From the IMG/VR virus record IMGVR_UViG_3300037067_006488, positions 13,284-77,283 of that record: DNA of 64,000 nt. One strand, given 5' to 3'. The position numbers were made by a program, and so were the translations under genes. A model generated the notes under the pieces. It was not told where the DNA came from. It did not search any database and worked only from the letters and a program-made list of their open reading frames with translations. Of this stretch, positions 4,003 through 27,900 are shown piece by piece (the stretch's first letter is position 1; every line of letters starts with the position of its first letter). Origin of the DNA: a virus (taxonomy: Duplodnaviria; Caudoviricetes).

Positions 4003-4003
4003 T

Positions 4004-6598: not shown

Positions 6599-6868
6599 AT
6601 TTTACAAGATATACCGTAAAAGAAAAGGACGGCAGTTTATCGTATTATGCGGTAGGCGTTGCTGATTTAATATCCTTTGACCTATTTAATGTAAAAGAAA
6701 TAGAATGTGTTTATAAACACCGAACCCCCACCTTCGAAGGCTTTGCAGAGTATCTGAAACGTAAATATGTGAAAGAATGAAAACATTATTTATTGTTTTA
6801 TTTATACTAATATTAGTATTTGTGACTGTTACTGATGATACTGATTATCCAATATAAAAATCAACAAA

Positions 6869-8592: not shown

Positions 8593-8593
8593 T

Positions 8594-9044: not shown

Positions 9045-9081
9045 AAAAAAGTCCGGTGTATTGCCGGACTTCTTGTTTTTT
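9044..9081. terminator. Bidirectional intrinsic terminator
   Basis: A8-GTCCGG-tgtattg-CCGGACTT then T-rich, between converging operons. Confidence 0.85.
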
Positions 9082-9088
9082 ACATAGC

Positions 9089-9688: not shown

Positions 9689-9716
9689 AGCTAAATATAT
9701 TAATTATTAATACAAA
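9686..9716 (-). promoter_or_regulatory. Bacteroidota consensus promoter at the tnpB 3' end
   Basis: Minus strand TTTG-N19-TAGCTTTG. Confidence 0.5.
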
Positions 9717-12695: not shown

Positions 12696-14576
12696 TTATA
12701 GAACAGTTATCGCATTCTTACTGTTGTTCTTTATCACATAATATATTATTACCGTTGGTGTTGTAAGACTACTATCATAATTTGCGTTTATTGTAATTAC
12801 ATTAGTCCCAGTTGTCACCGACCATGAACCAGTTAACGTACCTGCTGAAACAGCATCATCTTCGGCTGTGCTTGCAAGTTCGATTGTCCCCGTATAACTT
12901 GCTGCTTTGTTGACATATTGATATTTAACTATCCCGCTTATTGCTTGCATATCTGTCCCTTCAGTTGCGGTAATGGTATATTCAACAATTCCACCGCACA
13001 TTCCTAATGTGGGTAATGCAATGGTGGCTATTCCTGTGGCCGATCCGTCTGCTAATACTTTACTACCAGTAATAATTCTATCCACATTTGCTCCTGCGTG
13101 CATGACCCCGATTTTAACATTACTTTCTTCACTTGTATTTGTTACATTAGTATGTGACCAACTTATCTTTCCTGCCATTCTTTCGTTTCCGGTTGCACTC
13201 TGAGCATATAAATCAATTGATCCCCCAATCCCTGCTGCTGCTGTACCAGAACTAAGGCGAGATATTTTAATTTGACTTGTAATAGTATTTGTAGACGATG
13301 GATAACTTTGGAAGTCTGCTATTCTTGCTCCTGATGTGGTAGACATCCACCCAGCCAACCCAGATGTAGAGCTAAAATAGCCTCCGTAACCACTTACTGA
13401 AACACCCTGAACGCCTCTACCGCCACCTGAATTTAAACCATATACCGAACTCTTAGTGGCTGCTGCACTTGCTGATGTATTCGCATATAGCGCATAATCT
13501 AATTTACTGTAAGCAAATAATCCATATAAGGAATCCGAACCAGAGTATGATCCTGATCCCTTTCCATAATTATAATACCATGCTCCGTATTTTGTATTAT
13601 CAGTTGATATTGTTTGTGCATATATACCAGTCCCGTTTGTTGATTCTGCTTTAAGACCATATCCGTTGGTTGATCGACCTAAACCTCCTGTTTCGTGTGT
13701 GGATATAGCTATAAATCCAGGGCCGTAAGTACTTGTTGCAGATAATCCTCCGGTTAAATTACCAACAAAATTTCCACCATAATCAAATGTAGATGTAGCT
13801 CTTATACCATACTCTGTGTCACCATAAGCATCAATGGCCGGATAATTCAAGGCCGTTAATATAATCTGTGCTTTATGCGGTGAATATAATTTAAAACTTC
13901 CCGTTACATTATTAGTGGTAGTCCACGCTGTTCCATTGGTAGAATAAGCATGCATCGCCGTCCCCTCATTCTTTGTGTCTAATGAAATAGTACCACCAGA
14001 CGGAGCAGCACTTCTCTGCATAACTATCCAATAACTTGTGCCTGCAACTAAATTTTGATTTGTAGTCTGTGTTCTTACTTCTTTATATGTTTTATCAAGA
14101 TAACCATATCTCGCATTCTCTTGAATAACCCCAACTTTAGTTCCCGGAACACCAGCATTATCTGAATATATCCACATATACCAATAATTTGTAACATTTG
14201 TTATTGTCCCTGTTCGTTTAGCAAAAACACCAAACGATAGGATAGATATATTACTTGTCGGTGTGAACTTAAACGCTTCATAAGTATGAGCAAATTCCAA
14301 GTCAGTGCCTGTGTTTGCGCTGCCATCCAAAGCGACTATTTCAGAATGTGTGATCGTTAGGTTTTCTTTATCAACACCAGTACCATCTAAAGTTAGGTCT
14401 CCTGTTATATTCCCCGCATTTATTGTAGCCTGTCCGCTTGTTTCTAACTGACTTCTTGTATATCCATTATTGTTGCCACCTATGCTTATTACTTGTTGTG
14501 CTTTTACGGTTAATACAGAAAATGATAGTATAAATAAAATAATTCCTGTTTTCATTACTATAAATATATTCTTCAT
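12696..14576 (-). CDS. Signal-peptide-bearing tail-fibre-like protein
   Basis: MKTGIILFILSFSVLTVKA|QQ leader (alternative start 14555); Gly-rich G.G..A.S.. repeats; beta-rich C-terminal tip. Confidence 0.6.
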   Translation of the reverse strand: MKNIFIVMKTGIILFILSFSVLTVKAQQVISIGGNNNGYTRSQLETSGQATINAGNITGDLTLDGTGVDKENLTITHSEIVALDGSANTGTDLEFAHTYEAFKFTPTSNISILSFGVFAKRTGTITNVTNYWYMWIYSDNAGVPGTKVGVIQENARYGYLDKTYKEVRTQTTNQNLVAGTSYWIVMQRSAAPSGGTISLDTKNEGTAMHAYSTNGTAWTTTNNVTGSFKLYSPHKAQIILTALNYPAIDAYGDTEYGIRATSTFDYGGNFVGNLTGGLSATSTYGPGFIAISTHETGGLGRSTNGYGLKAESTNGTGIYAQTISTDNTKYGAWYYNYGKGSGSYSGSDSLYGLFAYSKLDYALYANTSASAAATKSSVYGLNSGGGRGVQGVSVSGYGGYFSSTSGLAGWMSTTSGARIADFQSYPSSTNTITSQIKISRLSSGTAAAGIGGSIDLYAQSATGNERMAGKISWSHTNVTNTSEESNVKIGVMHAGANVDRIITGSKVLADGSATGIATIALPTLGMCGGIVEYTITATEGTDMQAISGIVKYQYVNKAASYTGTIELASTAEDDAVSAGTLTGSWSVTTGTNVITINANYDSSLTTPTVIIYYVIKNNSKNAITVL

Positions 14577-14582
14577 AACATC

Positions 14583-16412
14583 CTAATTTAATTGTATCCT
14601 TATATCCGTACCCTGGTTAATAATACTGTCAACTCCAAAGCCTATCCTTCCCGGTGGTGGTGGATTCGGATTACTTGCCTCTGTCACCGTTACTGTCCAC
14701 TCCTGAGTTGATTCATCCAGTGCTGTCACCGTGTAAACAACCGGAGAAGTAAAGTCTGTTGCTGTTCCGCTTGTAGGTGAAATTGTCGCTCCTTCTGATA
14801 CTGTTATCGTAGGTTGTAATGCTGTTACTGACGTGCCGTATTCTACTTCGATACTCACAGTATGATTTGCGGTGTCTATTGTGGCTGTGCCTGTTTGTTG
14901 AGTGAATATGAAAGTTAGGATGTTGTTGTCGGTGGTGTCAAGAAACCCATATTCCGAGTAACCCAAATCGGGAGCTGAACCAAAGAATGTTAATACCACT
15001 CCTGACGAATCCGATTCAGGGATTTGTATGCCTCCGTCTATTAAATCAGAACCTTCTTTTAGTTTTAGGAAGGTTATATCGGGCAATGCTCCCCCCGCCT
15101 TTCGGGAAGCTGTCATTTGAGCCACTCCCTGAACTGAATCAGTTAAAATAAAATCATCATCGGTTACGGTGAAATCTAAAGATAAACAGGACTTAGGCAC
15201 GCTTCCAATATCACATGAATCGAAAGTATTATTTGATTCTGTGTATGCTTGCCAAAAAACAGCATAATAAGGTCTCATGGCAGCATCAAATCCTAAAGGT
15301 TCATAAGATATATTATTCCTGTAAACACTCATAGGGTAAAGACAATCATTACTGCTTGCTGAAAAATTACCCGTATTCCTATATGCTGTGTTGTTATAAA
15401 GTAAAGAACCGTCTTTATAATATGGATCATAGTCAGACTGTCCGAATCCAGCTCCTGTATTAAAGGCAGCTATGTTGTTTCTTAAAATCCTGTCGTAACC
15501 AATGGAATCCCCTAAATGCAATACTCCTTCACCATCTATATACGCACTGTCGCCCCTTGCTGCTCCGAATTTAAACCCGGTTCCATCCCTTGCTCCAATA
15601 AATCCATGTAAAAATGACCAGCAATCTTTAAATAAAAAATCCCCACTGCCGCTAATATCGAATCCGTCATCTGTACAGTTCCATGCCCTGCATCCTATCC
15701 ATTCAAGATAACCACCCGCTTCACTATCACACTTCCAACCATCCGCACCATTACCCGGGACCACACTCAGGGAATCATTACAGTTATAAGCATCACAATT
15801 AATAAAACGAGTAGTATCTGTTTCGATTCCATTAAATCCACAAGTGCCGGAATAGGCAAACCCACGACCGCCAATATTATAAGCAATGCAATTTTCAAAT
15901 GTCATGTTGTGAGGATACCAACCTGCACCAAAGCCAGAGGCAACGCTGCCATTCAGGGGTTGTAATACATTTCTTAATGTAAGCCCTTTGAAATACAAAT
16001 AGCCTGTATTATTTAAGTCAATACCGCTGTTTGATGTGTTGCCGGTAGTGTCAACGTTAATGCAATCTAAAATCGGAGTTTCACCGGGATATGCAAAAAA
16101 ACAAATAGGATTTTCCGCTGTCCCTGTATGGCCTATGCCGCTTGATGGACTATAATATGTTGTATGGATATATACAACGCTATTGCCGTAAGAGTGTTCT
16201 GAGGGATACCAAATCCCTGATCTAAAATATACCGTATCCCCTGCATCTGCCGTTTCAAAAGCGTGCTGCCAAGTAGCCCAGGGAAGGCTTATATCCGTGC
16301 CCGTGTTTTCATCACTTGCATTTGCGTTATATGCCGTATCCTGCACATAATATGTAGCTGAATTAGCGATTAAAGAAAAGCAGACAAATAATATAATTAG
16401 TTTTAGTTTCAT
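14583..16412 (-). CDS. Signal-peptide-bearing PL9-family polysaccharide lyase-like beta-helix with C-terminal DUF5018-like Ig domain
   Basis: ADGWK...GCRAWNCTDDGFD...GFKFG matches Pel9A motifs; TIS..SG...DFTSPVVYTVTA Ig repeat. Confidence 0.75.
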   Translation of the reverse strand: MKLKLIILFVCFSLIANSATYYVQDTAYNANASDENTGTDISLPWATWQHAFETADAGDTVYFRSGIWYPSEHSYGNSVVYIHTTYYSPSSGIGHTGTAENPICFFAYPGETPILDCINVDTTGNTSNSGIDLNNTGYLYFKGLTLRNVLQPLNGSVASGFGAGWYPHNMTFENCIAYNIGGRGFAYSGTCGFNGIETDTTRFINCDAYNCNDSLSVVPGNGADGWKCDSEAGGYLEWIGCRAWNCTDDGFDISGSGDFLFKDCWSFLHGFIGARDGTGFKFGAARGDSAYIDGEGVLHLGDSIGYDRILRNNIAAFNTGAGFGQSDYDPYYKDGSLLYNNTAYRNTGNFSASSNDCLYPMSVYRNNISYEPLGFDAAMRPYYAVFWQAYTESNNTFDSCDIGSVPKSCLSLDFTVTDDDFILTDSVQGVAQMTASRKAGGALPDITFLKLKEGSDLIDGGIQIPESDSSGVVLTFFGSAPDLGYSEYGFLDTTDNNILTFIFTQQTGTATIDTANHTVSIEVEYGTSVTALQPTITVSEGATISPTSGTATDFTSPVVYTVTALDESTQEWTVTVTEASNPNPPPPGRIGFGVDSIINQGTDIRIQLN

Positions 16413-17149
16413 AATCCATATTTAGTAACCAAATAATTATATATTGCCGTTTCATCATCATCGGTGTCGTCAATGCTTCTTAAAATAAATTCTTTAATTG
16501 AAAAGTTACCATAAACGGCCTGTGTAGATATTCTTCCTAAGTGAATACCATCCATCACCCCCGTCCCGAAATTACCCGTTACGGCTGTTTCTGTGTCTAT
16601 TTGTATTTTAGATGAAGCACCGCTAAAAACAATTCTCAACACCACCCATTCACCTATTGCCGCATAAGACAACTCGGATGAAACGCCCCCCGAATAGGCA
16701 AGGATATTGGGCGTAGTCCCGTATTGTTGAATAACTCCATTAGCATTTGAAAAGCCACTAAACAAACCTTCACCGTCCGTCCATGATTCTTGCCTGATAA
16801 CTGCATAAATCTGGTGTGGCTGAGATAATCCGGTAATTTCAATTACCGCTCTGTCATTATCACCGTCAAAGATTACAGAATCACCCCGGAATATCGGTCT
16901 GCCGGTCTGCCCAAAATTTGAAAGCAAATGATAATCATTACCTGATATATCATTCCATACTGTTAAGGAATCATTTATTTCTGTAATATTATCCGCACTT
17001 GCAACATACCATGCCACCGTATTCGCATTAAGAACATCAGGAATCCCGTCATCAACCGCCCCGCTCCCCCTATAAAACGGATACCTCCCTATCTGCCCGA
17101 ACATAAGGACAGACAAGAATAATAAGGGAATTGTTATTAATCGTTTCAT
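16409..17149 (-). CDS. Signal-peptide-bearing LamG/ConA-like domain protein
   Basis: MKRLITIPLLFLSVLMFG|Q; W.D.SGN.Y...P......FDG.ND pattern of fibre lectin domains. Confidence 0.6.
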   Translation of the reverse strand: MKRLITIPLLFLSVLMFGQIGRYPFYRGSGAVDDGIPDVLNANTVAWYVASADNITEINDSLTVWNDISGNDYHLLSNFGQTGRPIFRGDSVIFDGDNDRAVIEITGLSQPHQIYAVIRQESWTDGEGLFSGFSNANGVIQQYGTTPNILAYSGGVSSELSYAAIGEWVVLRIVFSGASSKIQIDTETAVTGNFGTGVMDGIHLGRISTQAVYGNFSIKEFILRSIDDTDDDETAIYNYLVTKYGL

Positions 17150-17152
17150 GGC

Positions 17153-18079
17153 TTAATATGTTGGTACTTTATATCCTGAAAGTGTAAGTATCAGTAATGA
17201 CGGTTTATTCCCGGCACTTACCCCGCTTATCGTACACCAAACAAACACACCGGGAGGGATAACAGCATTAGCAAAACTGGTATCATTATCTCCTGTCGTT
17301 ATACTCGTTACCGTGTAAGCAGATTCATTTAAGTTTGTCGCTGAACCAGATTTAAAGGTTGCGTGCCAAGATACTTGTACCGCCACCGTTTCCGTTCCAC
17401 TCCCTTCAGCAAGTACACCCCGTAAAGCTGTTACGTGTATTGTGTCGCTTCCCGCATTATAAAATGAACCTGCTATTGCATTGTTGGTGAACGAAGCCGT
17501 GTCAGCCGCTAATCCACTGCCAAGCCCAAAGACAAATATCGGTATCGTATCTGTCTTTAGATTTATGTCATTTGTATTCAACGGAATTGCGGAAAACACC
17601 CCGTCATCCATTCCGAATATAGTATCCACACTCGCCACCTCATTTGCACCTATCGTAAAGGCCGCAAGGCTGTCATGGACTATTGAAGATACATTTGCCG
17701 CCGTCTGGAAACTCGTTAAATCTCCGGCTACTGTGAAGGCAGAATCAACTAAGGCTGATTGTGTAACATACGTACTTAAATCTCCAGCCACAACAAACGC
17801 TGAGTCCACAAGTGCTGTTTGCTTTACATAATTTACAACTGTATCATGGACAATCCCTGATACGGTAGCGGCATCAACTCCACTTACTTCTAATAAATCA
17901 GAATAAGAGGCTATACCTCCCACCGCTCCGGTGGTGTCTGCCCAATGCAACACATTAGCTGAGTCCGCAGCCCATGAAGCGTCTGAACTGGTTGAACTGC
18001 TCCCGCTAATACTGATAACCTGCTGCCCGAATGATATACTGCATATCAGGCTTAATACAATAATAAGTTTTGTTTTCAT
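17153..18079 (-). CDS. Signal-peptide-bearing fibre-like protein
   Basis: MKTKLIIVLSLICSISFG|QQ; internal repeat ALVDSAF.VAGDL x2; beta-rich C-terminus. Confidence 0.6.
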   Translation of the reverse strand: MKTKLIIVLSLICSISFGQQVISISGSSSTSSDASWAADSANVLHWADTTGAVGGIASYSDLLEVSGVDAATVSGIVHDTVVNYVKQTALVDSAFVVAGDLSTYVTQSALVDSAFTVAGDLTSFQTAANVSSIVHDSLAAFTIGANEVASVDTIFGMDDGVFSAIPLNTNDINLKTDTIPIFVFGLGSGLAADTASFTNNAIAGSFYNAGSDTIHVTALRGVLAEGSGTETVAVQVSWHATFKSGSATNLNESAYTVTSITTGDNDTSFANAVIPPGVFVWCTISGVSAGNKPSLLILTLSGYKVPTY

Positions 18080-18082
18080 GCG

Positions 18083-18334
18083 TTAATCGTTTTTCTTTAT
18101 CTTAAACAACCCCAAAGTTAACCCTTCTATAAGAGTGTCCTTTGCCAACAACAAGGCATACCCTAACATAAATACAGGTATTATATCCCTGACGGGGAAT
18201 AATGCCGGAGAATCGTTAATAATGGCCTTAATATCGGCATATATCATGAACAAAGCATATAGGGTGATCGGTATACCCATTAACGTTGTTCTCCAATTCT
18301 GAAACCGTCTCTTTATGTTCTCTTGTTGGCTCAT
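18083..18334 (-). CDS. Holin-like 2-TM protein
   Basis: Start MSQQ at 18334 overlaps the upstream TGA (ATGA); NWRTTLMG then two TM helices and a basic tail. Confidence 0.5.
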   Translation of the reverse strand: MSQQENIKRRFQNWRTTLMGIPITLYALFMIYADIKAIINDSPALFPVRDIIPVFMLGYALLLAKDTLIEGLTLGLFKIKKND

Positions 18335-21300
18335 GGTGTATATATGTTTTCGTCTATCGTACCTATCGTCCCTGAAACATAGAACAGAACTTCCGAATCG
18401 AAAGCACCTACCGATATGCTTCCCGATACGGTGTCTCCGTCTGTGTCTATAAACACACAATTCCCTAAACTAAAAGAATGAGACGCATCCGACCAGTTGC
18501 TAAACACCTGTGTAAAGTCAGCCTCCGATATTCCCGTAACATCGTCGAATGTCCAGTTGTTCTGATTGTAGGTTGACCCTAATTCCCATCCAATATAAGT
18601 ACCCCATTCTGCAAGAGTATAAAGCTGCTTGTCTCCCCAATTATGCCTTGACCCTATTATCTTACTGTCGCTCCTGAAAGGATTGAAATAATAGTTGTTG
18701 TTAATTGTCATACCCGTAAAGGATGGTGTATTGTCGTCGCCCCAAGTAAAGCCCGTTGATCCTGTCTCGTCCGTAGCAACAACAGTGTTGTACTGCCACG
18801 TCAGATAGTTGGCGTTACCGTCGAAAGGCCCCTCTTTGTAAAAACCCGATTGATAACTGTAATAACCGTCAACATCGTGATCTACCGACAAGTTATAGGT
18901 AAAAGAGTTGTTGTTGGAGTTGTATTGGTTAAAGAAACCAACGCCTACACCTACGGTTGTGTTGTTTGTAACGGTAGTATACGCTTGTTTTTCGTCAAGA
19001 TATATCCCCTGTGTAATAGGATAATTCCTGCGCATAAACGAATAATCCGTACCCTGATTAACGACTAAGTTGTTGTTAATGCTTTTGGCTTTGTTTAACA
19101 TAAACTGATGTACGTAGATACCCCCTCCGTCTGTTAGATGTTCGCAAAAGTCGGTAATGTAATTGTTGGCAATAGAAAACGTGCCGTGTGCCAAACCGTC
19201 GTAAGCAATAGCCGCAATACCCGAATAACCCGTATGTGCAATATAATTACGTTGATACAACAAATTAGATTTGGGGTTCTTAGAATAAAGTCCGTAATAC
19301 CCTGCAATAGCATCGTCCCATCCGGGTGTAGAGCCAACACCGTCTATCCAACACCCAACTACTTGTTCGTCTCCCGCTAAACTACCCTGGAAGAATATAC
19401 CTGCACCGTTAGCGTTCATAACAGTGTCGTACCTGTGATAAATGTCGTAGGAGTTATAAATATATATCCCTGCATAAGCAGAATAGTCCGTATTAACATA
19501 CTCTGTTGTTATATCATGGGAGTTCTTGATAGATATATTATACTTGTGCGAACCCCATGTGCTTATGTCTTTTAATGTTATGTTGTAGGAGTCATCTATT
19601 GATATGATAGAGTCTTCTACGGGAGCATATATTGTTAACGAAGAAGGATTTGTGGTGTGATACAAAGTGATAGTCTGTGTCGCATAGTCGTACTTCCACT
19701 CCCCGTTCTGGTCAGGCGTAGTGTTAAACAACGCATAACCAAGTTTAGTCCCTGATGTGTAATGTTTAAGACTATATCCGCTTGTAAAATAAGATGATGT
19801 TAGGTTAAACCTTGTTGCTGTATTGCTGGCAATTTTAACTTTGTCTGCCAACCAATCCTCTACGTTAATATAAGCATAAGCATTTTGATATTGGTTCGTT
19901 GTCATACTAAGGTCTGTATCGTCAAAGTAAGACAAGAAGTCAGAAGCCACCCCTTCCATTTCATACCATCCCGTATTAGGAGTGCGGGCATTTTGATACC
20001 ATGTGCCGTTAATAAACAAACCGTTAAGGAGTGCTATTCCGTTATCGGTATCTTGGTTTTCGTAATAATCCTTTTCTGTGTCAGGTAATACCACGTCACT
20101 CTTAGTCCATAGGTTAGTGCCCGCACTCGACCAACTTGTTAATTGTTTTGTGCCGTATATAGTAGGACTTATATTACCGTACTTATTCCAACCTACGAGT
20201 GTTATATCGTTAGCACTGTGTATAATAATATTACCGTAGTAAGCAGTATCGCTTATCGCTATTGTTGTAGCTGTAGCCGCCCCTGCAATAATAGAGTTAA
20301 GTTCTGTTAAGGTTTGTTTGGGGGTTGACGCCGTTAAGCCGTCGTTAGCATCGTTCCCGTCAACAGCACAGAAATAGTAATCTGCGGTAACAGGAGTTGT
20401 AGGCACTGCTGCACCGTATTCTTTATATCCCATACTTGGTGTTGTGCTCCACTGTACGCCGTATAAGTCGTATTCGATAGCAAGGTCTGTGCCTGCATGA
20501 TAGGCAGGGCTGTATGTGTTTATCTCGTAAGCAGAATGTCTGCCGTTGACAAACAAAGGATCACCCTCTAAAGAATGCGTCCCCCTTGTCCAAGAACCGT
20601 CATCAGGAAAGAATAAATTGTAGTCTTCTTCAACATCCCCGTTGTTGTCGTAAATCGGGTAGTCATCATATCCACTTGTGGTATGGATAATATTATTCTT
20701 AACTTTTACACCCGAACACCCGCTCCAAACATATATTCCCCTTGGGGTATTGGCGTTGTACGTGGCATAATCTACAATAGTATTGTTGTATATTTCAGCA
20801 TTGTCGGTAACGTTGTTTAGTTCTATTGCGGCAAACCAACTGTTGATAATAAGATTGCCGTATATCTCTAAATTAATATTACCGTTAGTTACGTTATATT
20901 GTGGCTCTCCTGAAGTGTTGGGGGTATAAAAACCACGCGTACCGTTCTTAATTACGTTGTACCTAATAATACATTCAGGAGCAAGATATACTGATAAACC
21001 CGCCTGTCCCCAATCGTTGTACGCGTTATAACACTCCATCCTGTTGTGTTCGATAATAGAACCCGATGCAGTGCCGTTATAATTAGCAATATACTTTAAA
21101 CAATGTTTATATGTCGTATTGCTGCGGTCAAGAAGATTATATTTAAAATGACAGTAGTTGCTAAAATATGCGCTTGATGCGCCCCAATCCATACAGTCGC
21201 CGTTACCCGCAGACCCACGAGAGTTAACATTATAAACATAATTACCTTCTACTGTTACCATGTCGTCAGAACTTGCGCCCCCCCATCCAAAAACGTATAC

Positions 21301-22848
21301 GCCATCTTCAAGAGTCTCGTGAATAAGACAATTCTTCAAACCGCCTCCATATATTTGGGCTATACGCATAAGTTGATAGGTTCTTGTTGCGGCATTAGAT
21401 CGTATCTCGCAATTGTCAAATGTCACATTATAACAAATACCGTGTGTAAAAACAGTAGCCAATCCTCCTGCTGAACTATATAAATCTATATCCCGTATTG
21501 TAATATTAGACCTGTTAGTTATATCTATTAACCCGTAAGAATCCCCTAAAGAAATTGCTGCTTTTAATATGGGTCTTGTGCCTACACCGTAAGCACCGTA
21601 AAACACGTTGTCCTGTGATATGTATTCAGGCGTGGTTACACTAAACTCTTGTCCTCTTTTTAAGAAATAATATCTTCCTGATACCTGTGTGAAGTTCATA
21701 TTGGTGTAATCACCTCCAACCCCAACAAGATAAGTAAGAGAAGAGTCTATAACCGTTATGTTTACCGTCCCTGTGCCTGTAAGGAACCCGTCGGTAACAG
21801 AATATGTCAGTGTATACGATCCGTCTGCGGCGTGTGCCTGTATCTTAACGGTAGAATCTGCTATCGCAAAATAGTCTGCACCCGTACCCCCTGTCTCTGT
21901 CCATGTTAACGTTCCTCTCTTTTCGTAGTTACGGTTGTAATTAAGTTCAAGAACAACATCGTCGGCTGCATTTTCTTCTGCGATAGTTACATCTTGATCG
22001 TGAGCAATAGGGTATGTGCTGCTGATTATATTCTTTGCAATAGCATACCTGAAAAGACCCGCTTGCCTTATTATCTGTTGTGCGCCTGCCCTCATAAACC
22101 AAACGTGTCTTCCTGTTGTCGGGGTATATGTCCCCTCTCCTCCGCCTCCGCCTCCGGCAACACCTAATATAAAGTTGGTTGTGCCGTTATCGTATAGGCT
22201 GTCTATCTGTGCGTCTGTTAACGCATAGTTGTAATATTGAAAGTTATCTATATATCCGCTAAAAGAACTCCATCCATCGGCAGTTAAGTTGCCTATTGTT
22301 AGAGCATTTGTGTAATCTACAGGGCTGTTCATTATGCTGTCCGTAGTCTGATCTACGCCGTCAATATATATACGCCCGTATTGACTTGTTGCGCTATATT
22401 TAATAAATACTGCGTGTGTCCATGTGTTGTAGCTATATACACCCGTTCCTGTTCCGGCATTATCTGTAGCATACGCATCCCTAAAATACACTCTTCTGTT
22501 AGCTGCATCTAAATAAGCCTTTAACCCGTTAGCCTGAAAAGCAAAAGGATAGGGAGCCCCCGTTGTCTGTCCGTTACGAAACCAAAAGCTGATTGTTAAA
22601 CCAGCCCCCGTATTAAGATTAAGTTCTGTTGTTGTTGTTGCGTCGTCCTGCTGTCCGTTACGAAAATAAATAGAGTGTGTTGCCTCTTCGTAATATGTTG
22701 AGCTGTAACTTACCCCTCCGGTATTAAAAGAATAGTTACCCATGCTATCCACCGCCTCGTTATTAAAGAACACAGCCATTTGCGGTGGCTGCCCTTTAAC
22801 ATACGCTAAAGCAAAAAAAAAGAATAATATCGTTATATATCGTTTCAT
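18331..22848 (-). CDS. 1505-aa signal-peptide-bearing protein: LamG + Ig-like + two right-handed beta-helix domains (depolymerase/adhesin-like)
   Basis: MKRYITILFFFFALAYVKG|Q; TISFWF...IYIDG...FSGYIDNFQYYNYAL; GND.NDG...P.QTL; repeated I.NN/YN beta-helix turns. Confidence 0.7.
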   Translation of the reverse strand: MKRYITILFFFFALAYVKGQPPQMAVFFNNEAVDSMGNYSFNTGGVSYSSTYYEEATHSIYFRNGQQDDATTTTELNLNTGAGLTISFWFRNGQTTGAPYPFAFQANGLKAYLDAANRRVYFRDAYATDNAGTGTGVYSYNTWTHAVFIKYSATSQYGRIYIDGVDQTTDSIMNSPVDYTNALTIGNLTADGWSSFSGYIDNFQYYNYALTDAQIDSLYDNGTTNFILGVAGGGGGGEGTYTPTTGRHVWFMRAGAQQIIRQAGLFRYAIAKNIISSTYPIAHDQDVTIAEENAADDVVLELNYNRNYEKRGTLTWTETGGTGADYFAIADSTVKIQAHAADGSYTLTYSVTDGFLTGTGTVNITVIDSSLTYLVGVGGDYTNMNFTQVSGRYYFLKRGQEFSVTTPEYISQDNVFYGAYGVGTRPILKAAISLGDSYGLIDITNRSNITIRDIDLYSSAGGLATVFTHGICYNVTFDNCEIRSNAATRTYQLMRIAQIYGGGLKNCLIHETLEDGVYVFGWGGASSDDMVTVEGNYVYNVNSRGSAGNGDCMDWGASSAYFSNYCHFKYNLLDRSNTTYKHCLKYIANYNGTASGSIIEHNRMECYNAYNDWGQAGLSVYLAPECIIRYNVIKNGTRGFYTPNTSGEPQYNVTNGNINLEIYGNLIINSWFAAIELNNVTDNAEIYNNTIVDYATYNANTPRGIYVWSGCSGVKVKNNIIHTTSGYDDYPIYDNNGDVEEDYNLFFPDDGSWTRGTHSLEGDPLFVNGRHSAYEINTYSPAYHAGTDLAIEYDLYGVQWSTTPSMGYKEYGAAVPTTPVTADYYFCAVDGNDANDGLTASTPKQTLTELNSIIAGAATATTIAISDTAYYGNIIIHSANDITLVGWNKYGNISPTIYGTKQLTSWSSAGTNLWTKSDVVLPDTEKDYYENQDTDNGIALLNGLFINGTWYQNARTPNTGWYEMEGVASDFLSYFDDTDLSMTTNQYQNAYAYINVEDWLADKVKIASNTATRFNLTSSYFTSGYSLKHYTSGTKLGYALFNTTPDQNGEWKYDYATQTITLYHTTNPSSLTIYAPVEDSIISIDDSYNITLKDISTWGSHKYNISIKNSHDITTEYVNTDYSAYAGIYIYNSYDIYHRYDTVMNANGAGIFFQGSLAGDEQVVGCWIDGVGSTPGWDDAIAGYYGLYSKNPKSNLLYQRNYIAHTGYSGIAAIAYDGLAHGTFSIANNYITDFCEHLTDGGGIYVHQFMLNKAKSINNNLVVNQGTDYSFMRRNYPITQGIYLDEKQAYTTVTNNTTVGVGVGFFNQYNSNNNSFTYNLSVDHDVDGYYSYQSGFYKEGPFDGNANYLTWQYNTVVATDETGSTGFTWGDDNTPSFTGMTINNNYYFNPFRSDSKIIGSRHNWGDKQLYTLAEWGTYIGWELGSTYNQNNWTFDDVTGISEADFTQVFSNWSDASHSFSLGNCVFIDTDGDTVSGSISVGAFDSEVLFYVSGTIGTIDENIYTP

Positions 22849-22852
22849 ATCT

Positions 22853-24115
22853 TTATTTTCTAAATAACTTGAATCGTTTCTTTTTTATAGGCGTTGCTCT
22901 CTCTAATGCTTCTATTCTTGCCTCTAACTCCGCTTGTTTTTTCTCTACGTCTGCTATATTGCGGAGGTTATATTCTATGCCCGCTTGTAAAGCCTGAAGA
23001 TAACGCATAGGGGGTAGTTTGTCCACCATAAATGTATTGTATATAGTACCGTCTACCTGATAATACCACCGTACCTCGTAGTTAAGCATTTCTTCAAGGC
23101 GTTGTGTCGCCGTTCTTATCTTATTCATTTCAAAAATAAAGGATGCTGGTTCTGTTGTGGCTGTGTCTATTGCACTTGTACTTGTGCCTGTCAGCCATGA
23201 ACTTGACATATCTCCGAAGATTGTAAGATATACAGAGTCCCTTATTGCAACAGTGCCGTCTACATCAAGAGCTTCACTTGGAGATGTTGTCCCTATACCA
23301 ATATCCCCCGTTGTTCTTTCTACAAAGAAAGAATTACCTGCGTCTGAGGTGATTGTTAATCCTCCGGTAATAGCTTTAAAATCTTGTGATCCATTCCCGT
23401 CGTCTGTGTTCTGTATTCTTATTGCGGGACTTGCTCCGTATATATGCGTAATAGTAGCGGGAGAGTGAGTTCCTATCCCAATATTCCCTAATAGCGTGAG
23501 ATTACCGTTTCCAAACATTTGTATATTGTTTGTGCCTGCTGTATTTTGTACCGACAAACTATAATTATTATCGTTGCCGTTCTTAAAAACAACTCCATAT
23601 CCAGTTGCGCTTGTGTTACTAAACAAACCGATAACATCTGCCGCAATTGACTTTTGTGCATGGAATAAATAAACAGGAGCTATCCCTATACCAACATCTT
23701 TAGTGGTAGATAGAGTGGTGTCTGTTGTCGTCCAATCCCCGACATCTATATTTGATAAATCGTATTGTGTTGCTATTGTAGAAGTGGTGTCAGCCCAATG
23801 TAAAAGATTAGCGGAGTCGGCAGCAAATATAGGATCAGATTCTACACTTACAAACCCCGCAAGAGAATCGCTTACAACAGAAGCAGCTACAGATTCGGCA
23901 GTATTTAAAACATAGGTTTTAATAGCCTGAGAAGACGGTAATGTTTTGTCGCTTGTTGTCGTCAAGGTAGTATCTATTACAACTCCCGTCACCCATCCGT
24001 TAGTCTCGTCAAAATACACGGAGTCTATGTTGATTGCGCCCATCTGGAACACCGCCTGTGAATAAGCCGTAGAACCTACAACAAACAACGCTAATATGAA
24101 TAATATCTTCCTCAT
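22853..24115 (-). CDS. Signal-peptide-bearing trimeric fibre-like protein
   Basis: True start MRKILF at 24115 (ATGA overlap); GIGT.SP repeats; C-terminal KQAELEARIEALE coil as in S74-chaperone-type fibres. Confidence 0.65.
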   Translation of the reverse strand: MRKILFILALFVVGSTAYSQAVFQMGAINIDSVYFDETNGWVTGVVIDTTLTTTSDKTLPSSQAIKTYVLNTAESVAASVVSDSLAGFVSVESDPIFAADSANLLHWADTTSTIATQYDLSNIDVGDWTTTDTTLSTTKDVGIGIAPVYLFHAQKSIAADVIGLFSNTSATGYGVVFKNGNDNNYSLSVQNTAGTNNIQMFGNGNLTLLGNIGIGTHSPATITHIYGASPAIRIQNTDDGNGSQDFKAITGGLTITSDAGNSFFVERTTGDIGIGTTSPSEALDVDGTVAIRDSVYLTIFGDMSSSWLTGTSTSAIDTATTEPASFIFEMNKIRTATQRLEEMLNYEVRWYYQVDGTIYNTFMVDKLPPMRYLQALQAGIEYNLRNIADVEKKQAELEARIEALERATPIKKKRFKLFRK

Positions 24116-24444
24116 TTTATCAACTGAATTAAGTCCTTTAATGTTATCATGTCGGCAAGGGATACAACAGTAAACATAAGAACAACCATGTAAACAACAG
24201 ACTGTACCGGATGTTTCGACACCCATGCTGAAACCACACTGTCTTGCTTTACACATCGTATATCGTCCTCTGTCTTTGTCACCCTGCCGTTTGTCTTCTT
24301 TTGGTGTTCTATCATATCGTCCTGCTTCTCGAAGACGGATTTAAACCTTTCTTCCATTATCCCTTCAAGTCTGCCGACAATAGCATCCAAATAATCCCTG
24401 TCTTGCATATTCATAGGTAGATACCGTGTAAAGTCATTAGACAT
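24112..24444 (-). CDS. Small coiled-coil protein with C-terminal TM (holin/XhlA-like)
   Basis: KKTNGRV motif plus a C-terminal hydrophobic helix. Confidence 0.45.
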   Translation of the reverse strand: MSNDFTRYLPMNMQDRDYLDAIVGRLEGIMEERFKSVFEKQDDMIEHQKKTNGRVTKTEDDIRCVKQDSVVSAWVSKHPVQSVVYMVVLMFTVVSLADMITLKDLIQLIK

Positions 24445-24896
24445 TAATAATATATTTTGATACGTCCCGATGTTACGCTATTCCATACGATTGTGAAAGC
24501 CACATACCCACCCGGCCAATCTTTGTCGGTTATAAAAGACTGACGAGCAACAGTGTATCTTGTGCCGTCACTCTTGCGTATTGTCTTTGCGTTTGTTGTT
24601 GCGTCGAGGATAACACTATCTGCCGACGTAGAGCCACTCCATTGCAGATCGCCAGCCCACACTCCGTAGGCATCCGCTAACCCTATCTTCAGCACTGCAT
24701 CGTCTGCATTTAGATCGGAATAGTCTACAATTATCGCATTTACATCCTGCGCTACGTTAAGGATGAATGTTGTTGTGTCGTAGGCGTAATACGTGGCTGC
24801 ACTCCAATTAGCCTCTATATCACCTATCCTTTGTGTCTGTGCTTTAACACCTAACGCACACAACATAAATAAACCGAGAACAATTATCTTTTTCAT
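24444..24896 (-). CDS. Signal-peptide-bearing small beta-sandwich protein
   Basis: Start MKKIIVLGLFMLCALGVKA|QTQ at 24896. Confidence 0.6.
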   Translation of the reverse strand: MKKIIVLGLFMLCALGVKAQTQRIGDIEANWSAATYYAYDTTTFILNVAQDVNAIIVDYSDLNADDAVLKIGLADAYGVWAGDLQWSGSTSADSVILDATTNAKTIRKSDGTRYTVARQSFITDKDWPGGYVAFTIVWNSVTSGRIKIYY

Positions 24897-24949: not shown

Positions 24950-27900
24950 TTATTTACTGTATTTACCGAACCTTAATTTATATCTTGCCTTGTCTGCTGC
25001 ATCGTTAGCGTATTGGGCAACCCTGTCCTGAACTTCTGCTTTATCCATGTTCATAAGTTCTTTATAATGTTCTTCCAGTAAGTCTTTTAACAACTGCCCC
25101 CTTAGTTTGGCATATTGATAATACTCCTCTTCATTAAGCAACCTGGTATTCCCTTCTGTATCGTACATAACTATACTCTTACTTGGCTTATTAAGCCAAG
25201 CCTCGTTGTCTACAATCAACTGCCATATAGGATCGTCTTCTTCTTTGTTTGTCCATCTGTTCATATTGGCGACAACAGGTTCTCCTAAAGCATTTGTCAT
25301 TTCGTTAAGTTTGTTTCTTGCAATAGGAATGTCTCTGTACATCTGTTCCCATGTATCGTTAGCTTCTTTCATGGGCATATTGTAGGTCTGTTGTATCTTT
25401 CTACTTACCTGTGTTACAATATTGGGAACAACAAAACCCTTACCCACATTCTGCAAATACTTTTCAAAATACCCTGACGCTTTTGTTGGGTCTGACTCAT
25501 TAAACGAAGAAAGAAACTCAGACACACCACGCAAGAAGGTAAGGTCTGTAAAATATTGCGCCGTATTCCATAGTATTATTTCAGTCCTCTTTAACATATC
25601 TTTATCTTCAAGGGTTCTGCCCTGATAGTTTCTGGCATCCATTATATTTCCAACAACAGTAAGAGGAATAGCTAAAGGCGTGTTTTGATAAGAATACCAT
25701 GTATCTCCTATTTTAACACTATACTTCTGCCATCCAGTTTCCTGAAGGTTATAGTTTTTAACATAATCGTTAGTACCGTTAGCTGTTATTTCTATTGTCG
25801 GTTCGTCTTGATCGTCCCTCTTAGTGGCAAGCCAAAACAAAGTAAGCCCTGCGATAGTTCCTAATGTAGCCGCTATTATTTCCTTGGTTCTTTCTTCTTG
25901 TGTATACTTTCTTGTGTATTTAGTACCCATATCTTGCTTGCCGCCCATACTCCCTCTTGCTGCACGAACAAAACCATAAGGAGAATAGTCAAGATACGTA
26001 TTAGCAACGTTAGATAATATGTTAGTAAATGGGACAATAAACTTTATGGGCTTAACATCCCCAAACTTTACTTGATTAGCAATATTAGCGACAAGGTCTG
26101 TAACCCGACCTATCCTGCCTTCAGGGGGGAAGTTAAACGTTCCTCTGCTTGCTATATTGTTGGCGTCATCATGTAGTTCATCGGGAAGCCCTTGTTCCAT
26201 GATTTCCCACATTCTTCTCCTTATATCTATCCCTTTTAGCCCCTCTTTCTTTGCCTGCGCAATAGCCTTCTCTTTTAATTCTTTTGTTTTAAGAAGTTTC
26301 TCGCTTATATATCTTTCTACTTCAGCCTTACTCATACCAAGACCCTTGGTCTGTCTGTGTACGAGTTCATGCAACCTCATACCCTGAAGCCCATAATAAA
26401 AGAAGCTATCTACACCCACCATAACACGGGGCACATACCTATGTAATTTAAGAGGATTCCATTGTTTGCCGAACAATTTAAACCCTTCGTATGATTCTAA
26501 TGCTGATGGCGTTGCTTGTCTTTCCGTAAACTCGAACTTAGCACCCTTCATGGGGTCGTAACCTGTTTTAAGAACAGACCATAACTCCAACAATCCCCTA
26601 CCGTACCCATCATACAATCCCCTTAATAGGTCTAAAGTAGATTTAGGGCTATATATCGCAGACTTAACCAACTCCATCGCTGTGTTAGCTGTGTTAGCTA
26701 AGAAGTTAAGTTCTTGTGTCTTGTATCCTGATAGTATATGAGCATACCACACAGACATTGCCAGGTCTGCTAATTTGATGCCTTTTATCCTTGCCTCATA
26801 TCCAAGCAGGTCTGTTGTTGCATTAAACTTCTGGAAACCGTCAGGTGCTTTCTTGACCCTATCGGCTAACCGTTTAAGTTCATCAAGTTCTTTGTCTGTC
26901 AGTTTTCTACCAGTATTCTTTTCAATGTCTGCAATAATCTTATCGGTAAGAACCCTCGAATTAAGTTTAGACCATATTGCATAAGCCTGTACACCCTGTC
27001 CTAATTCAGTGCCGTACATTGTCATAAACTCGGCTATGTCAACAGACTTCTTGGCTGCATCCTTCCATTCACTACTTTCAGGATCAGCTTCGTTTAGTAT
27101 TTTATTGTAGGCGTTAATAACGGCCTCACCAAGAGCAACCCTGACTCTCGGAAATAAACCGTTATTCTTATCCTTTACCATAAGGATAGACTCTGTTAGC
27201 CCCTTCTCTTGGATAATAACATCGGCTTCGTGCATTGTCACTTTATTTCCCGTAGGAATATACATCTTAGCATCTTCACTAAGCCCCGTCTTTATCTCGT
27301 CAGACACGTCTTCGTCTTCCAATAACCTCTTAGCAAACTTTCTCTGTTTGCCCCTCTCTACGTAAATGTCTCGTATAAGATTACGGTTGTTATCTATGTA
27401 ATCTGAAATCGTTTTAAGATTCTCTGGTGTTAATGGCTTTTGTTTAAGATAGTCTTTTATCTTCGTTATAAGATCGTCAACACTCAATGCTCCTAATTCA
27501 AACACGTCTTCGGCTATCTGCCGCATTGCCTTTAGCGGATCGGGTCTTTGTTCTCCCATAAGAGATGTACTGCCACCAATCCCAGTAATAAGATTATCAA
27601 AATTATCGGCAATACGTTTCTTTAACTCTGCTTTCCTTGCTTCGTTTGGTGCTTCCTGCGTAGGTTGCGTGACCTGACCTTCTCCGGTAACTTCTTGTTG
27701 TCCGGCGTCTCCTCCTCGAACCTCCGTGCTAATCGTGGGTTCGTTGCCCAAAGGAATCTCCGTTGGGACGCTGACTTCATTGGCATTTGGTTGTCCTCCT
27801 ATCCTCTTTAAGTATTGTTCTTGTAATTTCTGCCCTTCCTCAAAAGACTCAACATAGGGTGTTTTATTGAGGGCATCTTGTACATTACCAAACTTCCCAT

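What the first reader, a model, noticed from the sequence alone, without database searches (positions are those of the whole stretch)
12696..24896. The whole tail-fibre locus is Sec-exported: seven signal-peptide proteins and no cytoplasmic fibre
Seen: seven of nine consecutive late genes begin with a basic n-region, a hydrophobic core and a small-residue cleavage site: VKA|Q (24896), AYS|Q (24115), VKG|Q (22848), SFG|Q (18079), MFG|Q (17149), ANS|A (16412), VKA|Q (14555). Six have Gln at +1. The other two genes are small membrane proteins. None shows a lipobox or a T9SS C-terminal domain. Their bodies are fibre, lectin or depolymerase-like, and no signal-less fibre gene lies among the rings, muzzle and cargo genes. 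Known: Bacteroidota SPI substrates follow a Gln (pyroglutamate) rule, and tailed-phage virions normally assemble in the cytoplasm. Inference: the receptor-binding apparatus is exported to the periplasm, matured there, and either docks on particles at lysis, acts as a released depolymerase, or remodels the infected cell surface. Any of these would be an unusual assembly route or surface system.
Basis: partly seen in the sequence, partly recalled or inferred. Interest (0 to 1): 0.92.

Follow-up and report, generated by a model that had tools for sequence, protein, structure and literature searches.

The report
Phage tail fibres carrying export signals
An uncultured 77-kb crAss-like phage of Bacteroidota puts its host's secretion signal on all seven of its fibre, lectin and sugar-cutting proteins, so its host-recognition gear probably matures in the periplasm rather than in the cytoplasm, where tailed-phage particles are built.

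Summary
Observation confirmed. All seven large genes at 12696-24896 (minus strand) begin with a basic n-region, a hydrophobic core and a small-x-small site. Six have Gln at +1. By my heuristic the count is 7/7 here against 1/46 other ORFs of 140 aa or more in the genome (p = 5e-8). None has a lipobox or a T9SS C-terminal domain.

The block sits in the T7/crAss fibre slot, after ring/adaptor, muzzle and three ejection/cargo proteins and before the amidase endolysin. I found no signal-less fibre-like gene elsewhere.

The leaders are under selection. In the 17-member family of the first protein, the +1 Gln is one of only two invariant columns. Across this window and related contigs, 22 of 23 leader-bearing phage proteins end in small-x-small|Q.

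The fibre body of the last gene also occurs without a leader in a siphovirus fibre slot. In cultured Cellulophaga phage phi18:3, three proteins with such leaders are annotated as structural from MS/MS of virions. crAss001, phi38:1 and two family relatives have ordinary leaderless fibres.

Export is therefore strongly inferred and virion membership is likely by analogy. Docking at lysis is only inferred.

This scan has flagged the same theme on other phage DNA several times. I found no paper describing it.

The parts
24444..24896 (-). sp1, 150 aa: leader (VKA|Q) plus a small beta-sandwich, CBM/lectin-like protein. It is the first gene after the cargo gene.
   Evidence: The family has 17 representatives, all full-length ones with a leader, and the +1 Gln (Q20) is one of 2 invariant columns. 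AF2 model pLDDT 84: helix at residues 2-14, low confidence at 19-22, beta-sandwich from residue 29. Fold matches to CBMs and tailspike domains are weak. A homologue with a leader sits in the same position in relative L016.
24112..24444 (-). x_110, 110 aa: no leader, N-terminal coiled-coil-like part and a C-terminal TM segment. It is conserved next to sp1.
   Evidence: A homologue (30% identity) lies in the same position in L016. The Atlas gives only leads: viral small proteins, XhlA-like at 0.90. Function unknown.
22853..24115 (-). sp2, 420 aa: leader (AYS|Q), fibre-type repeats and a basic coiled-coil C-terminus.
   Evidence: Its only close relative, P0002 (41% over the first 120 residues, leader included), lies in a phage contig beside other leader-bearing depolymerases. 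Weak repeat matches to fibre proteins carrying Peptidase_S74. Sequon count 8 against 2.5 expected.
18331..22848 (-). sp3, 1505 aa: leader (VKG|Q), Laminin_G_3 lectin domain and right-handed beta-helix regions. Depolymerase-like.
   Evidence: Pfam Laminin_G_3 E = 6.8e-18, Beta_helix E = 6.3e-6. The LamG part is 34% identical to the leader-bearing LamG-GH5 protein of L003.
18083..18334 (-). tm_83, 83 aa: two TM segments and a charged C-terminus. Holin-like candidate.
   Evidence: No family hit. The holin role is inferred from topology only.
17153..18079 (-). sp4, 308 aa: leader (SFG|Q), a short strand-like mature N-terminus, repeat stalk and C-terminal head. Modelled as a homotrimeric fibre.
   Evidence: The trimer model of residues 20-308 scores 0.82 against a best control of 0.00. 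Sequon count 10 against 2.3 expected, z = 5.2. No family hits.
16409..17149 (-). sp5, 246 aa: leader (MFG|Q) plus a ConA-like/LamG lectin.
   Evidence: Atlas feature score 0.97-0.98 to Laminin_G_3 clusters, and structural TM 0.75-0.80 to viral clusters (lead only). Pfam finds nothing below E = 0.01.
14583..16412 (-). sp6, 609 aa: leader (ANS|A, the only one without Gln), PL9/PelN-like pectate-lyase beta-helix and a DUF5018-type domain.
   Evidence: Pfam Pel9A-like_beta_helix E = 1.1e-11, DUF5018. NCBIfam PelN E = 5.7e-29, well below the equivalog cutoff. The homologue in family relative L013 (35% over 620 residues, aligned from residue 3) has SFG|Q. Sequon count 11 against 3.1 expected.
12696..14555 (-). 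sp7, 619 aa: leader (VKA|Q), a 33-residue mature N-terminal segment, then a receptor-binding body shared with fibres of other phages.
   Evidence: Homologues P0030-P0033 carry leaders. P0031 is the only fibre-slot gene of a baseplate-J phage (L007). P0034 and P0035 are leaderless in a siphovirus fibre slot (L008). Homology begins at residue 53. NCBIfam choice-of-anchor R domain.
24950..30541 (-). Context: 1863-aa polyvalent cargo/ejection protein directly upstream of the block.
   Evidence: Pfam LPD14. 84 relatives, many on 70-80 kb contigs.
33403..37005 (-). Context: 1200-aa muzzle/nozzle protein.
   Evidence: Sits after an SU10-adaptor-like gene. The equivalent genes of relatives L014 and L015 hit Pfam crAss_MUZ_C / crAss_MUZ weakly.
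10868..11566 (-). Context: Amidase_3 endolysin without a leader, downstream of the block.
   Evidence: PHROG endolysin, Pfam Amidase_3 E = 1.6e-17, no leader.

Best explanation
The seven proteins are this phage's receptor-binding and depolymerase set. It comprises fibres sp2, sp4 and sp7, lectins sp1 and sp5, and beta-helix enzymes sp3 and sp6. Each is made as a Sec precursor with a Bacteroidota-type SPase I leader. Proposed mechanism, marked as shown or inferred. (1) Late in infection the block is expressed with the virion genes (inferred from position and strand). (2) The precursors cross the inner membrane unfolded, and the leader is cut at small-x-small|Q. The new N-terminal Gln is cyclised by the host glutaminyl cyclase, as for host SPase I substrates. 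This step is inferred from sequence and from conservation of the site, including an invariant +1 Gln in the sp1 family. (3) The proteins fold and trimerise in the periplasm. Those rich in the D-S/T-hydrophobic motif (sp2, sp4, sp6) are probably O-glycosylated by the host general system (inferred). (4) Fibreless particles are built in the cytoplasm. When holin and amidase breach the envelope, the two compartments mix and the fibres dock on the tail. This step is inferred. Virion membership is supported only by analogy with the MS/MS-annotated leader-bearing structural proteins of Cellulophaga phage phi18:3.
For: Leaders are clustered and specific: 7/7 against 1/46, p = 5e-8. Each is encoded by unrelated DNA.

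The leader is under selection. In the sp1 family (17 representatives, 26-48% identity) the +1 Gln is one of two invariant columns, and every full-length member keeps the MK-hydrophobic-small-x-small pattern. The sp6 homologue in L013, the sp1 homologue in L016 and the sp2 homologue P0002 all keep leaders. 22 of 23 leader-bearing phage proteins seen here end in small-x-small|Q. That matches the Bacteroidota Q-rule (PMC5837995).

Fibre identity. The gene order ring/adaptor, muzzle, three ejection proteins, block, endolysin matches the T7/crAss layout. The sp7 body is shared with proteins in the fibre slots of a baseplate-J phage and a siphovirus. The trimer model of mature sp4 supports binding but does not show it. 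Score 0.82, best of 3 controls 0.00. The mark was reached by 21 of 30 proteins solved as pairs of one chain and by 0 of 23 solved as single chains. The runs agree in at least 55% of contacts and the partner's pLDDT is at least 63. It was folded without an alignment and with three copies, unlike the calibration. Lectin, beta-helix and pectate-lyase domains are present.

No signal-less fibre-like gene was found anywhere in the genome by Pfam or PHROGs.

Virion membership by analogy. phi18:3 gp085, gp086 and gp087 are annotated 'structural protein, annotation based on experimental MS/MS proteomics analysis', and all three start with Q-rule leaders. phi46:3 has five such genes in a row, including a 'pectate lyase' and a 'tail fiber protein'. 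Both phages are among the best TerL matches of this phage.

O-glycosylation sequon: 42 observed against 19.1 expected in the block, and 53 against 47.9 in the rest of the genome. The motif and its restriction to non-cytoplasmic proteins come from PMC12871550.
Against: No signal-peptide predictor, proteome or localisation experiment was available, so export and cleavage are inferred from sequence alone. The MS/MS annotation of phi18:3 shows presence in purified virions. It does not show that the leader is removed or that the proteins passed through the periplasm, and the paper itself was not readable here. The phi18:3 proteins share no detectable body similarity with those of this window. No docking partner on the tail and no known N-terminal anchor domain was identified. 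Sequon enrichment is confined to three of the seven proteins, and sp7 has 1 against 2.3 expected. Relatives of the same family (L014, L015) make do with leaderless fibres, so export is not obligatory for this virion architecture. Post-lysis attachment of seven different proteins would seem inefficient.
Confidence: 0.55

Rival explanations
1. The proteins are exported but most are not virion parts. They act as soluble periplasmic or released enzymes and lectins: receptor-destroying or release factors that stop progeny sticking to debris, superinfection-exclusion factors, or envelope-loosening aids to lysis. Host recognition would then rest on the muzzle or on one or two of the seven.
For: sp3 and sp6 are enzyme-like: beta-helix and a PelN-like pectate lyase whose bacterial relatives are secreted enzymes. 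sp1 and sp5 are small lectin-like domains with no stalk. In relative L013 the leader-bearing genes are two large enzymes placed after several leaderless small proteins. Seven different appendages is a lot for a short tail.
Against: No other fibre or RBP candidate exists in the genome. The sp7 body is used as the fibre-slot protein in other phages. sp4 models as a trimeric fibre. In phi18:3 all three leader-bearing proteins are annotated from virion MS/MS. The phi46:3 protein annotated 'pectate lyase' (gp081) carries a leader, and that annotation is by similarity to phi18:3 gp87, one of the three. Without a T9SS domain or lipobox the proteins cannot reach the cell surface before lysis.
Confidence: 0.22
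2. The leaders are not used for translocation during infection. They serve as uncleaved membrane tethers or assembly handles, or they are bypassed (Sec saturated or shut off, fast cytoplasmic folding, internal starts), so fibres join particles in the cytoplasm in the usual way.
For: Tailed-phage assembly is cytoplasmic in every studied case (established knowledge). sp2 and sp3 each have a Met 5 residues after the predicted cleavage site. The same RBP body works without a leader in L008.
Against: A tether or a bypass would not need a conserved SPase I site. Yet small-x-small|Q is kept in 22 of 23 proteins, and the +1 Gln is invariant in the sp1 family while the hydrophobic core drifts. Five of the seven have no nearby internal Met. 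Sequon enrichment in three proteins makes sense only outside the cytoplasm (PMC12871550).
Confidence: 0.15
3. Annotation artefact or recent passive inheritance. The genes were captured from host secreted-protein genes, and the leaders are relics with no role.
For: LamG, DUF5018, choice-of-anchor R and PelN-like domains are common in secreted Bacteroidota proteins.
Against: Seven of seven relic leaders staying intact with unrelated DNA sequences is improbable without selection. So is their conservation across homologues at 26-48% identity and across phages of different morphotypes.
Confidence: 0.05

Closest known systems
Leader-bearing structural proteins of cultured Cellulophaga phages (Pachyviridae): phi18:3 gp085-087 (KC821620.1) and phi46:3 gp079-083 (NC_021792.1)
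   Same: Runs of consecutive genes just upstream of the lysis genes. Each starts with MK, a hydrophobic core and small-x-small|Q. Bodies are annotated pectate lyase or tail fibre, and small membrane-protein genes lie alongside. These phages are among the best TerL matches of this phage. They are the outgroup of crassviruses according to PMC10172136. The phi18:3 proteins are annotated structural from virion MS/MS.
   Different: No detectable sequence similarity between the bodies. They have three to five genes rather than seven. As far as I could search, the leaders have never been discussed in print.
Tail fibres of Bacteroides crassvirus PhicrAss001, gp22-gp26 (NC_049977.1; Bayfield et al. 2023, PMC10172136)
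   Same: crAss-type particle plan with rings, muzzle and cargo. A cluster of fibre genes with polygalacturonase, lectin and hydrolase bodies is followed by lysis genes.
   Different: None of gp22-gp26 has a leader. Residues 1-26 of gp22 are present in the virion and dock in the tail hub, so that N-terminus is not removed. I identified no tail-hub (THA/THB) homologue here.
Host Sec/SPase I substrates of Bacteroidota obeying the Q-rule (Bochtler et al. 2018, PMC5837995), and substrates of the phylum's general O-glycosylation system (PMC12871550)
   Same: Leader architecture, Gln at +1 in 6 of 7, and enrichment of the D-S/T-hydrophobic motif in three proteins.
   Different: These are phage late genes in a virion operon, not host envelope proteins. 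Cleavage, cyclisation and glycosylation are untested.
Coat proteins pIII and pVIII of filamentous (Ff) phages
   Same: Virion proteins, including the receptor-binding protein, are made with Sec leaders and join the particle outside the cytoplasm (established knowledge).
   Different: Ff virions are extruded through the envelope and never exist in the cytoplasm. Here a DNA-filled tailed particle is built in the cytoplasm, and only its appendages would be exported.
Exported lysis proteins of tailed phages (SAR endolysins, o-spanin lipoproteins)
   Same: Late phage proteins that use the host Sec system and wait in the envelope until holin triggering (established knowledge). An o-spanin-like lipoprotein follows the leader-bearing fibre in L007.
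   Different: Those are lysis effectors, not virion parts. The endolysin here has no leader.

Membership tests
Bacteroidota Sec/SPase I (Q-rule) substrates | Tripartite leader: positive n-region, hydrophobic h-region, small residues at -3/-1 | tested here: met
   7 of 7 by my own heuristic; 1 of 46 other ORFs of 140 aa or more
Bacteroidota Sec/SPase I (Q-rule) substrates | Gln at +1 after the cleavage site | tested here: met
   6 of 7 in the window. 22 of 23 across related phage proteins. Invariant in the sp1 family. Rule taken from PMC5837995.
Bacteroidota Sec/SPase I (Q-rule) substrates | Call by a trained predictor (SignalP 6) and experimental cleavage with pyroGlu | not testable with these tools
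   No predictor or proteome available
Lipoproteins (SPase II) | Lipobox with Cys at +1 | tested here: not met
   No Cys at or near the cleavage site in any of the seven. For contrast, the early gene 63043-63429 does have a lipobox.
T9SS cargo proteins | C-terminal sorting domain (Por_Secre_tail, TIGR04183/TIGR04131) | tested here: not met
   No hit in Pfam or NCBIfam for any of the seven
Tailed-phage tail fibre / tailspike (virion receptor-binding proteins) | Gene position after tail and ejection-protein genes and before lysis genes | tested here: met
   Order is adaptor-like, muzzle, 363 aa, 572 aa, 1863-aa cargo, block, amidase
Tailed-phage tail fibre / tailspike (virion receptor-binding proteins) | Homology to proteins occupying the fibre slot of other phages | tested here: met
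   sp7 to L007 (48%) and L008 (43%); sp6 to L013 (35%). No such evidence for sp1, sp4 or sp5.
Tailed-phage tail fibre / tailspike (virion receptor-binding proteins) | Homotrimeric architecture | tested here: inconclusive
   Only sp4 was modelled. Score 0.82 against best control 0.00; 21 of 30 solved pairs and 0 of 23 single chains reach the mark; contact agreement at least 55%; pLDDT at least 63. This is a model, not a measurement.
Tailed-phage tail fibre / tailspike (virion receptor-binding proteins) | Recognisable N-terminal particle-binding (anchor) domain | tested here: not met
   No similarity to the shared N-termini of phi38:1 gp085/087 or to crAss001 gp22. sp4, sp7 and a protein of L003 share only a short strand-like motif right after the cleavage site.
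Tailed-phage tail fibre / tailspike (virion receptor-binding proteins) | Presence in purified virions | not testable with these tools
   Uncultured phage. The analogous phi18:3 proteins are annotated from MS/MS.
Substrates of the Bacteroidota general O-glycosylation system | Non-cytoplasmic protein carrying the D-S/T-A/I/L/V/M/T motif above chance | tested here: inconclusive
   Block 42 observed against 19.1 expected; rest of genome 53 against 47.9. Only sp2, sp4 and sp6 are individually enriched (z = 3.7-5.2).
crAss-like (Crassvirales-related) podophages | Muzzle protein, ring proteins, large cargo protein, crAss-type TerL and portal | tested here: inconclusive
   TerL and portal hit PHROGs 6681 and 6547. 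The muzzle genes of relatives hit Pfam crAss_MUZ only weakly. The window's own 1200-aa protein has no Pfam hit. The nearest cultured TerL is 21-25% identical.
PL9 / PelN-like pectate lyases (sp6) | Pel9A-like right-handed beta-helix | tested here: met
   Pfam 44.8 bits against a cutoff of 25.2. NCBIfam PelN 101 bits, far below the equivalog cutoff of 740. So it is a domain relative, not an orthologue. Catalytic residues were not examined.

The most novel reading that the evidence does not exclude
A sizeable set of tailed phages of Bacteroidota has a periplasmic arm of virion morphogenesis. Every receptor-binding protein is Sec-exported, cut by SPase I, capped with pyroglutamate and O-glycosylated by the host system. 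The glycan may be one that the phage's own cytoplasmic glycosyltransferase operon rewrites. These proteins would be attached to cytoplasm-built particles only when the envelope is breached at lysis.
Probability: 0.35. Interest if true: 0.9.

Novelty: new variant of a known kind. Interest (0 to 1): 0.75.

Why it matters
Textbook morphogenesis of tailed phages is wholly cytoplasmic. If the fibres of many Bacteroidota phages mature in the periplasm, several things follow.

- It would be a new assembly step: compartment-separated particle and fibres, joined at lysis.
- It would be a route by which phage host-recognition proteins acquire host-type modifications (pyroGlu, O-glycans, disulfides). These could affect stability, host range and antigenicity.
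- It carries a practical warning. Recombinant fibres or depolymerases from these phages made in the E. coli cytoplasm may misfold. Annotation pipelines that treat a signal peptide as evidence against a virion role would misfile them.

The question is directly testable, because cultured Cellulophaga phages (phi18:3, phi46:3) carry the same feature. This window is the most complete example I saw. All seven appendage proteins have leaders, there is no leaderless alternative, and the genome also carries a large phage glycosyltransferase operon.

Tried and rejected
- Sequence searches of the muzzle, major capsid protein and portal against PDB found nothing.
- Single-protein scans of IMG/VR with the cargo, 572-aa and portal proteins found no true relative. 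L001 shares only one domain.
- tblastn of sp2, sp4 and sp7 against 50,697 cultured-phage records gave no match.
- Host identification through the TnpB-like transposase failed. The only hit is 55% identical, on a 5.6-kb contig of a Saccharibacteria MAG, which is uninformative.
- The dual-start idea (long form exported, short form cytoplasmic) was rejected as a general explanation. Only sp2 and sp3 have a Met shortly after the cleavage site.
- The idea that the leaders are one duplicated 5' cassette was rejected. There are no DNA repeats between the leader-coding segments.
- T9SS targeting was rejected.
- More distant family members L018 and L019 have a different gene order, so their fibre genes were not within the fetched flank.
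- The Holmfeldt et al. 2013 paper (PMC3732932) is not held. The MS/MS claim therefore rests on the GenBank note.
- Sequencing runs: no RNA holder is listed. Only contigs could be laid, so they say nothing about expression.
- The fold search for sp1 gave only weak, generic beta-sandwich matches with TM 0.3-0.4.
I repeated it from files.

Full report
**What the DNA is.** The window is the last 64 kb of a single 77,283-bp viral contig. It has about 40% G+C and no tRNA genes. The late operon runs on the minus strand in this order:
- TerL at 46553-48853 and portal at 43903-46506;
- major capsid protein at 41147-42607;
- four genes of about 200-240 aa, one resembling the SU10 adaptor;
- a 1200-aa protein;
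- proteins of 363 and 572 aa;
- an 1863-aa polyvalent (LPD14) protein;
- the block under study;
- an Amidase_3 endolysin.

In relatives found through the 1863-aa protein, the gene equivalent to the 1200-aa one hits Pfam crAss_MUZ / crAss_MUZ_C weakly. The nearest cultured TerL proteins are only 21-25% identical. They belong to podophages of Flavobacteriaceae: Cellulophaga phi46:3, phi13:2, phi19:3 and phi38:1, Tenacibaculum Gundel_1 and Flavobacterium elemo phages. Bayfield et al. (PMC10172136) treat phi13:2 as the outgroup of crassviruses. The phage's DNA is held by a groundwater metagenome, which may be its source, and near-identical pieces occur in a landfill metagenome from another study.

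Six are followed by Gln and one (sp6) by Ala. A simple heuristic of my own flags 7 of 7 block ORFs of 140 aa or more, against 1 of 46 elsewhere in the genome (p = 5e-8). It flags none of the 13 structural genes upstream. The two remaining genes encode small membrane proteins. No lipobox and no T9SS C-terminal domain is present. The leader-coding DNA segments share no repeats, so they are not one duplicated cassette.

**What the bodies are.**
- sp3 (1505 aa) has a Laminin_G_3 lectin domain and beta-helix regions.
- sp6 (609 aa) is a PL9/PelN-like beta-helix with a DUF5018-type domain.
- sp5 (246 aa) is ConA/LamG-like by Atlas features and structure, which is a lead only.
- sp1 (150 aa) folds confidently (pLDDT 84) into a beta-sandwich. 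This follows a helical leader and a low-confidence linker at the cleavage site. Its fold matches to CBMs and tailspike domains are weak.
- sp2 (420 aa) carries fibre-type repeats.
- sp4 (308 aa) has no family hit, but its mature part models as a homotrimer with a periodic stalk and a head. The model supports binding but does not show it. Score 0.82, best of 3 controls 0.00. The mark was reached by 21 of 30 proteins solved as pairs of one chain and by 0 of 23 solved as single chains. The runs agree in at least 55% of contacts and pLDDT is at least 63. The job used three copies and no alignment, unlike the calibration.
- sp7 (619 aa) has clear relatives. Four carry leaders. One of these (P0031) is the only fibre-slot gene of a baseplate-J phage and is followed by holin-like genes, a VanY endolysin and a lipoprotein. 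Two relatives (P0034, P0035) are leaderless and sit in the fibre slot of a siphovirus. Homology starts at sp7 residue 53, so the same receptor-binding body is fitted with either a leader plus 33 residues or a 19-residue leaderless N-terminus.

**No leaderless fibre.** The proteins between muzzle and block have Gly-rich or TM-like N-termini in relatives and no fibre domains, like the ejection proteins of T7-like phages. Pfam scans of the remaining larger ORFs found replication, methylase, anti-restriction and glycosyltransferase functions, but nothing fibre-like. The block is therefore in the fibre slot and is the only candidate receptor-binding set.

**The leaders are selected, not relics.** A full HMMER scan of 1.8 billion representatives found 17 sp1-family members at 26-48% identity. 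All full-length ones keep the leader. Only two columns are invariant across the family, and one of them is the +1 Gln. The closest family relative (L016, cargo protein 57% identical) has the same opening trio: an sp1 homologue with a leader, an x_110 homologue, and a 737-aa leader-bearing protein. An integrase gene follows. L013 has an sp6 homologue aligned from residue 3, with SFG|Q. P0002, the sp2 homologue, keeps the leader and lies beside two more leader-bearing depolymerases, one LamG-GH5-PL14 and one pectate-lyase/Phage_depo_C. Across all these, 22 of 23 leaders end in small-x-small|Q. That is the signature of the Bacteroidota Q-rule, in which SPase I exposes a Gln that a periplasm-facing cyclase converts to pyroglutamate (PMC5837995). 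An uncleaved tether or a bypassed relic would not need that site.

**Comparison with cultured phages.** A note from an earlier follow-up in this scan pointed to Cellulophaga phage phi18:3, and I checked it. In GenBank KC821620.1, gp085, gp086 and gp087 are annotated 'structural protein, annotation based on experimental MS/MS proteomics analysis'. All three begin with Q-rule leaders. phi46:3 has five such genes in a row, annotated virion structural protein, pectate lyase and tail fiber protein. Parts of that module are shared at 89-94% nucleotide identity with siphoviral Cellulophaga phages such as phi10:1, phi19:1 and Nekkels. By contrast, phi38:1 gp085/087, an elemo phage and crAss001 gp22-26 have no leaders. 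In crAss001, residues 1-26 of gp22 are seen docked in the tail hub. Two members of this phage's own family (L014, L015) also use leaderless fibres. Leader-bearing and leaderless fibres are thus interchangeable in the same slot. The leader-bearing kind reaches purified virions in at least one cultured system, if the GenBank note is right. I could not read the source paper.

**Why export?** The D-S/T-A/I/L/V/M/T motif of the Bacteroidota general O-glycosylation system acts only on non-cytoplasmic proteins, in the periplasm (PMC12871550). It occurs 42 times in the block against 19.1 expected from composition, and 53 against 47.9 in the rest of the genome. The excess comes from sp2, sp4 and sp6 (z = 3.7-5.2). 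The other four proteins are at chance. The genome also carries a cytoplasmic glycan-building operon upstream of the window: a GT2, a radical-SAM protein and a 1440-aa GT11/FkbM-methyltransferase/GT25/GT2 fusion. A link between that operon and the exported proteins is possible but untested.

**Most likely mechanism.** The seven proteins are made late and translocated by Sec. They are cut by SPase I, N-terminally cyclised, folded and trimerised in the periplasm, and in part O-glycosylated. They meet the cytoplasm-built particle when the holin and the leaderless amidase open the envelope. The holin is perhaps tm_83. Export and cleavage I hold at about 0.85, virion membership of at least some of the seven at about 0.7, and the whole chain at about 0.55. 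Without an outer-membrane targeting signal, remodelling of the cell surface before lysis is unlikely. A role for some members (sp3, sp6, sp1, sp5) as soluble enzymes or lectins released at lysis remains open.

**Novelty.** Eight full-text searches turned up no paper that describes leaders on tailed-phage fibres or their export. One paper on DGR targets notes the opposite, that phage DGR proteins lack signal peptides (PMC6199706). Earlier follow-ups in this scan reached the same reading on other phage genomes, so this is a further instance and not the first sighting. It is the most extensive one I saw.

Noticed in passing
genome positions 2035-9246, upstream of the window (locus L023): Phage glycan-building operon: methyltransferase, GT2, radical-SAM protein and a 1440-aa fusion of GT11 (fucosyltransferase family), FkbM methyltransferase, GT25 and GT2 domains. 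It could rewrite the lipid-linked glycan that the host transfers to exported proteins, but no link has been tested.
   Followed up: partly
window 24112-24444 and L016:15099-15452: A 110-aa protein with a coiled-coil N-terminus and a C-terminal TM segment is conserved between sp1 and the first large leader-bearing protein in this phage and in its closest relative. The Atlas suggests XhlA-like phage membrane proteins (score 0.90, lead only). It may be an assembly or lysis-timing factor.
   Followed up: partly
window 17153-18079, 12696-14555 and L003:5671-7164: Three otherwise unrelated leader-bearing proteins share a short strand-like motif directly after the cleavage site (Q-Q/N-V/T-V/I-x-I then Gly/Ser-rich). 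In the sp4 trimer model, residues 20-54 lie outside the confident interface. This may be a common docking or sorting segment.
   Followed up: no
L020:6514-8441: In an unrelated phage contig, the sp1-family protein and a second small leader-bearing protein flank a 356-aa gene right after the putative capsid gene. Leader-bearing small beta-sandwich proteins may therefore also occur in head modules.
   Followed up: no
L003:2025-5573: The leader-bearing LamG-GH5-PL14 gene of this related contig is interrupted by one in-frame TGA inside the GH5 domain. This could be a sequencing error, a pseudogene or recoding.
   Followed up: no
L003:793-2028 (P0002) versus window 22853-24115: The sp2 homologue has both a leader and a C-terminal TM segment, giving a type I membrane topology. 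sp2 itself ends in a basic coiled-coil tail without a TM segment.
   Followed up: no
window 9700-10890: A TnpB/IS605-type transposase gene (PHROG 506, E = 4e-116) lies immediately downstream of the endolysin. The nearest GTDB match is 55% identical, on a small contig of a Saccharibacteria MAG.
   Followed up: partly
window 63043-63429 and 60131-60547: Two small plus-strand genes outside the late operon carry export signals: one has a lipobox (Cys at +1) and one an SPase I-like leader. They may be superinfection-exclusion or envelope-modifying proteins.
   Followed up: no
L016:18320-19579: The closest family relative carries a tyrosine integrase gene directly after its fibre block, so part of this phage family may be temperate.
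   Followed up: no
window 12699-17526: Contigs of the groundwater run break or jump at several places within sp5-sp7 (joints such as 12699 to 14681 and 15077 to 17066). This suggests co-existing variants with swapped fibre cassettes, but the evidence comes from contigs only.
   Followed up: no
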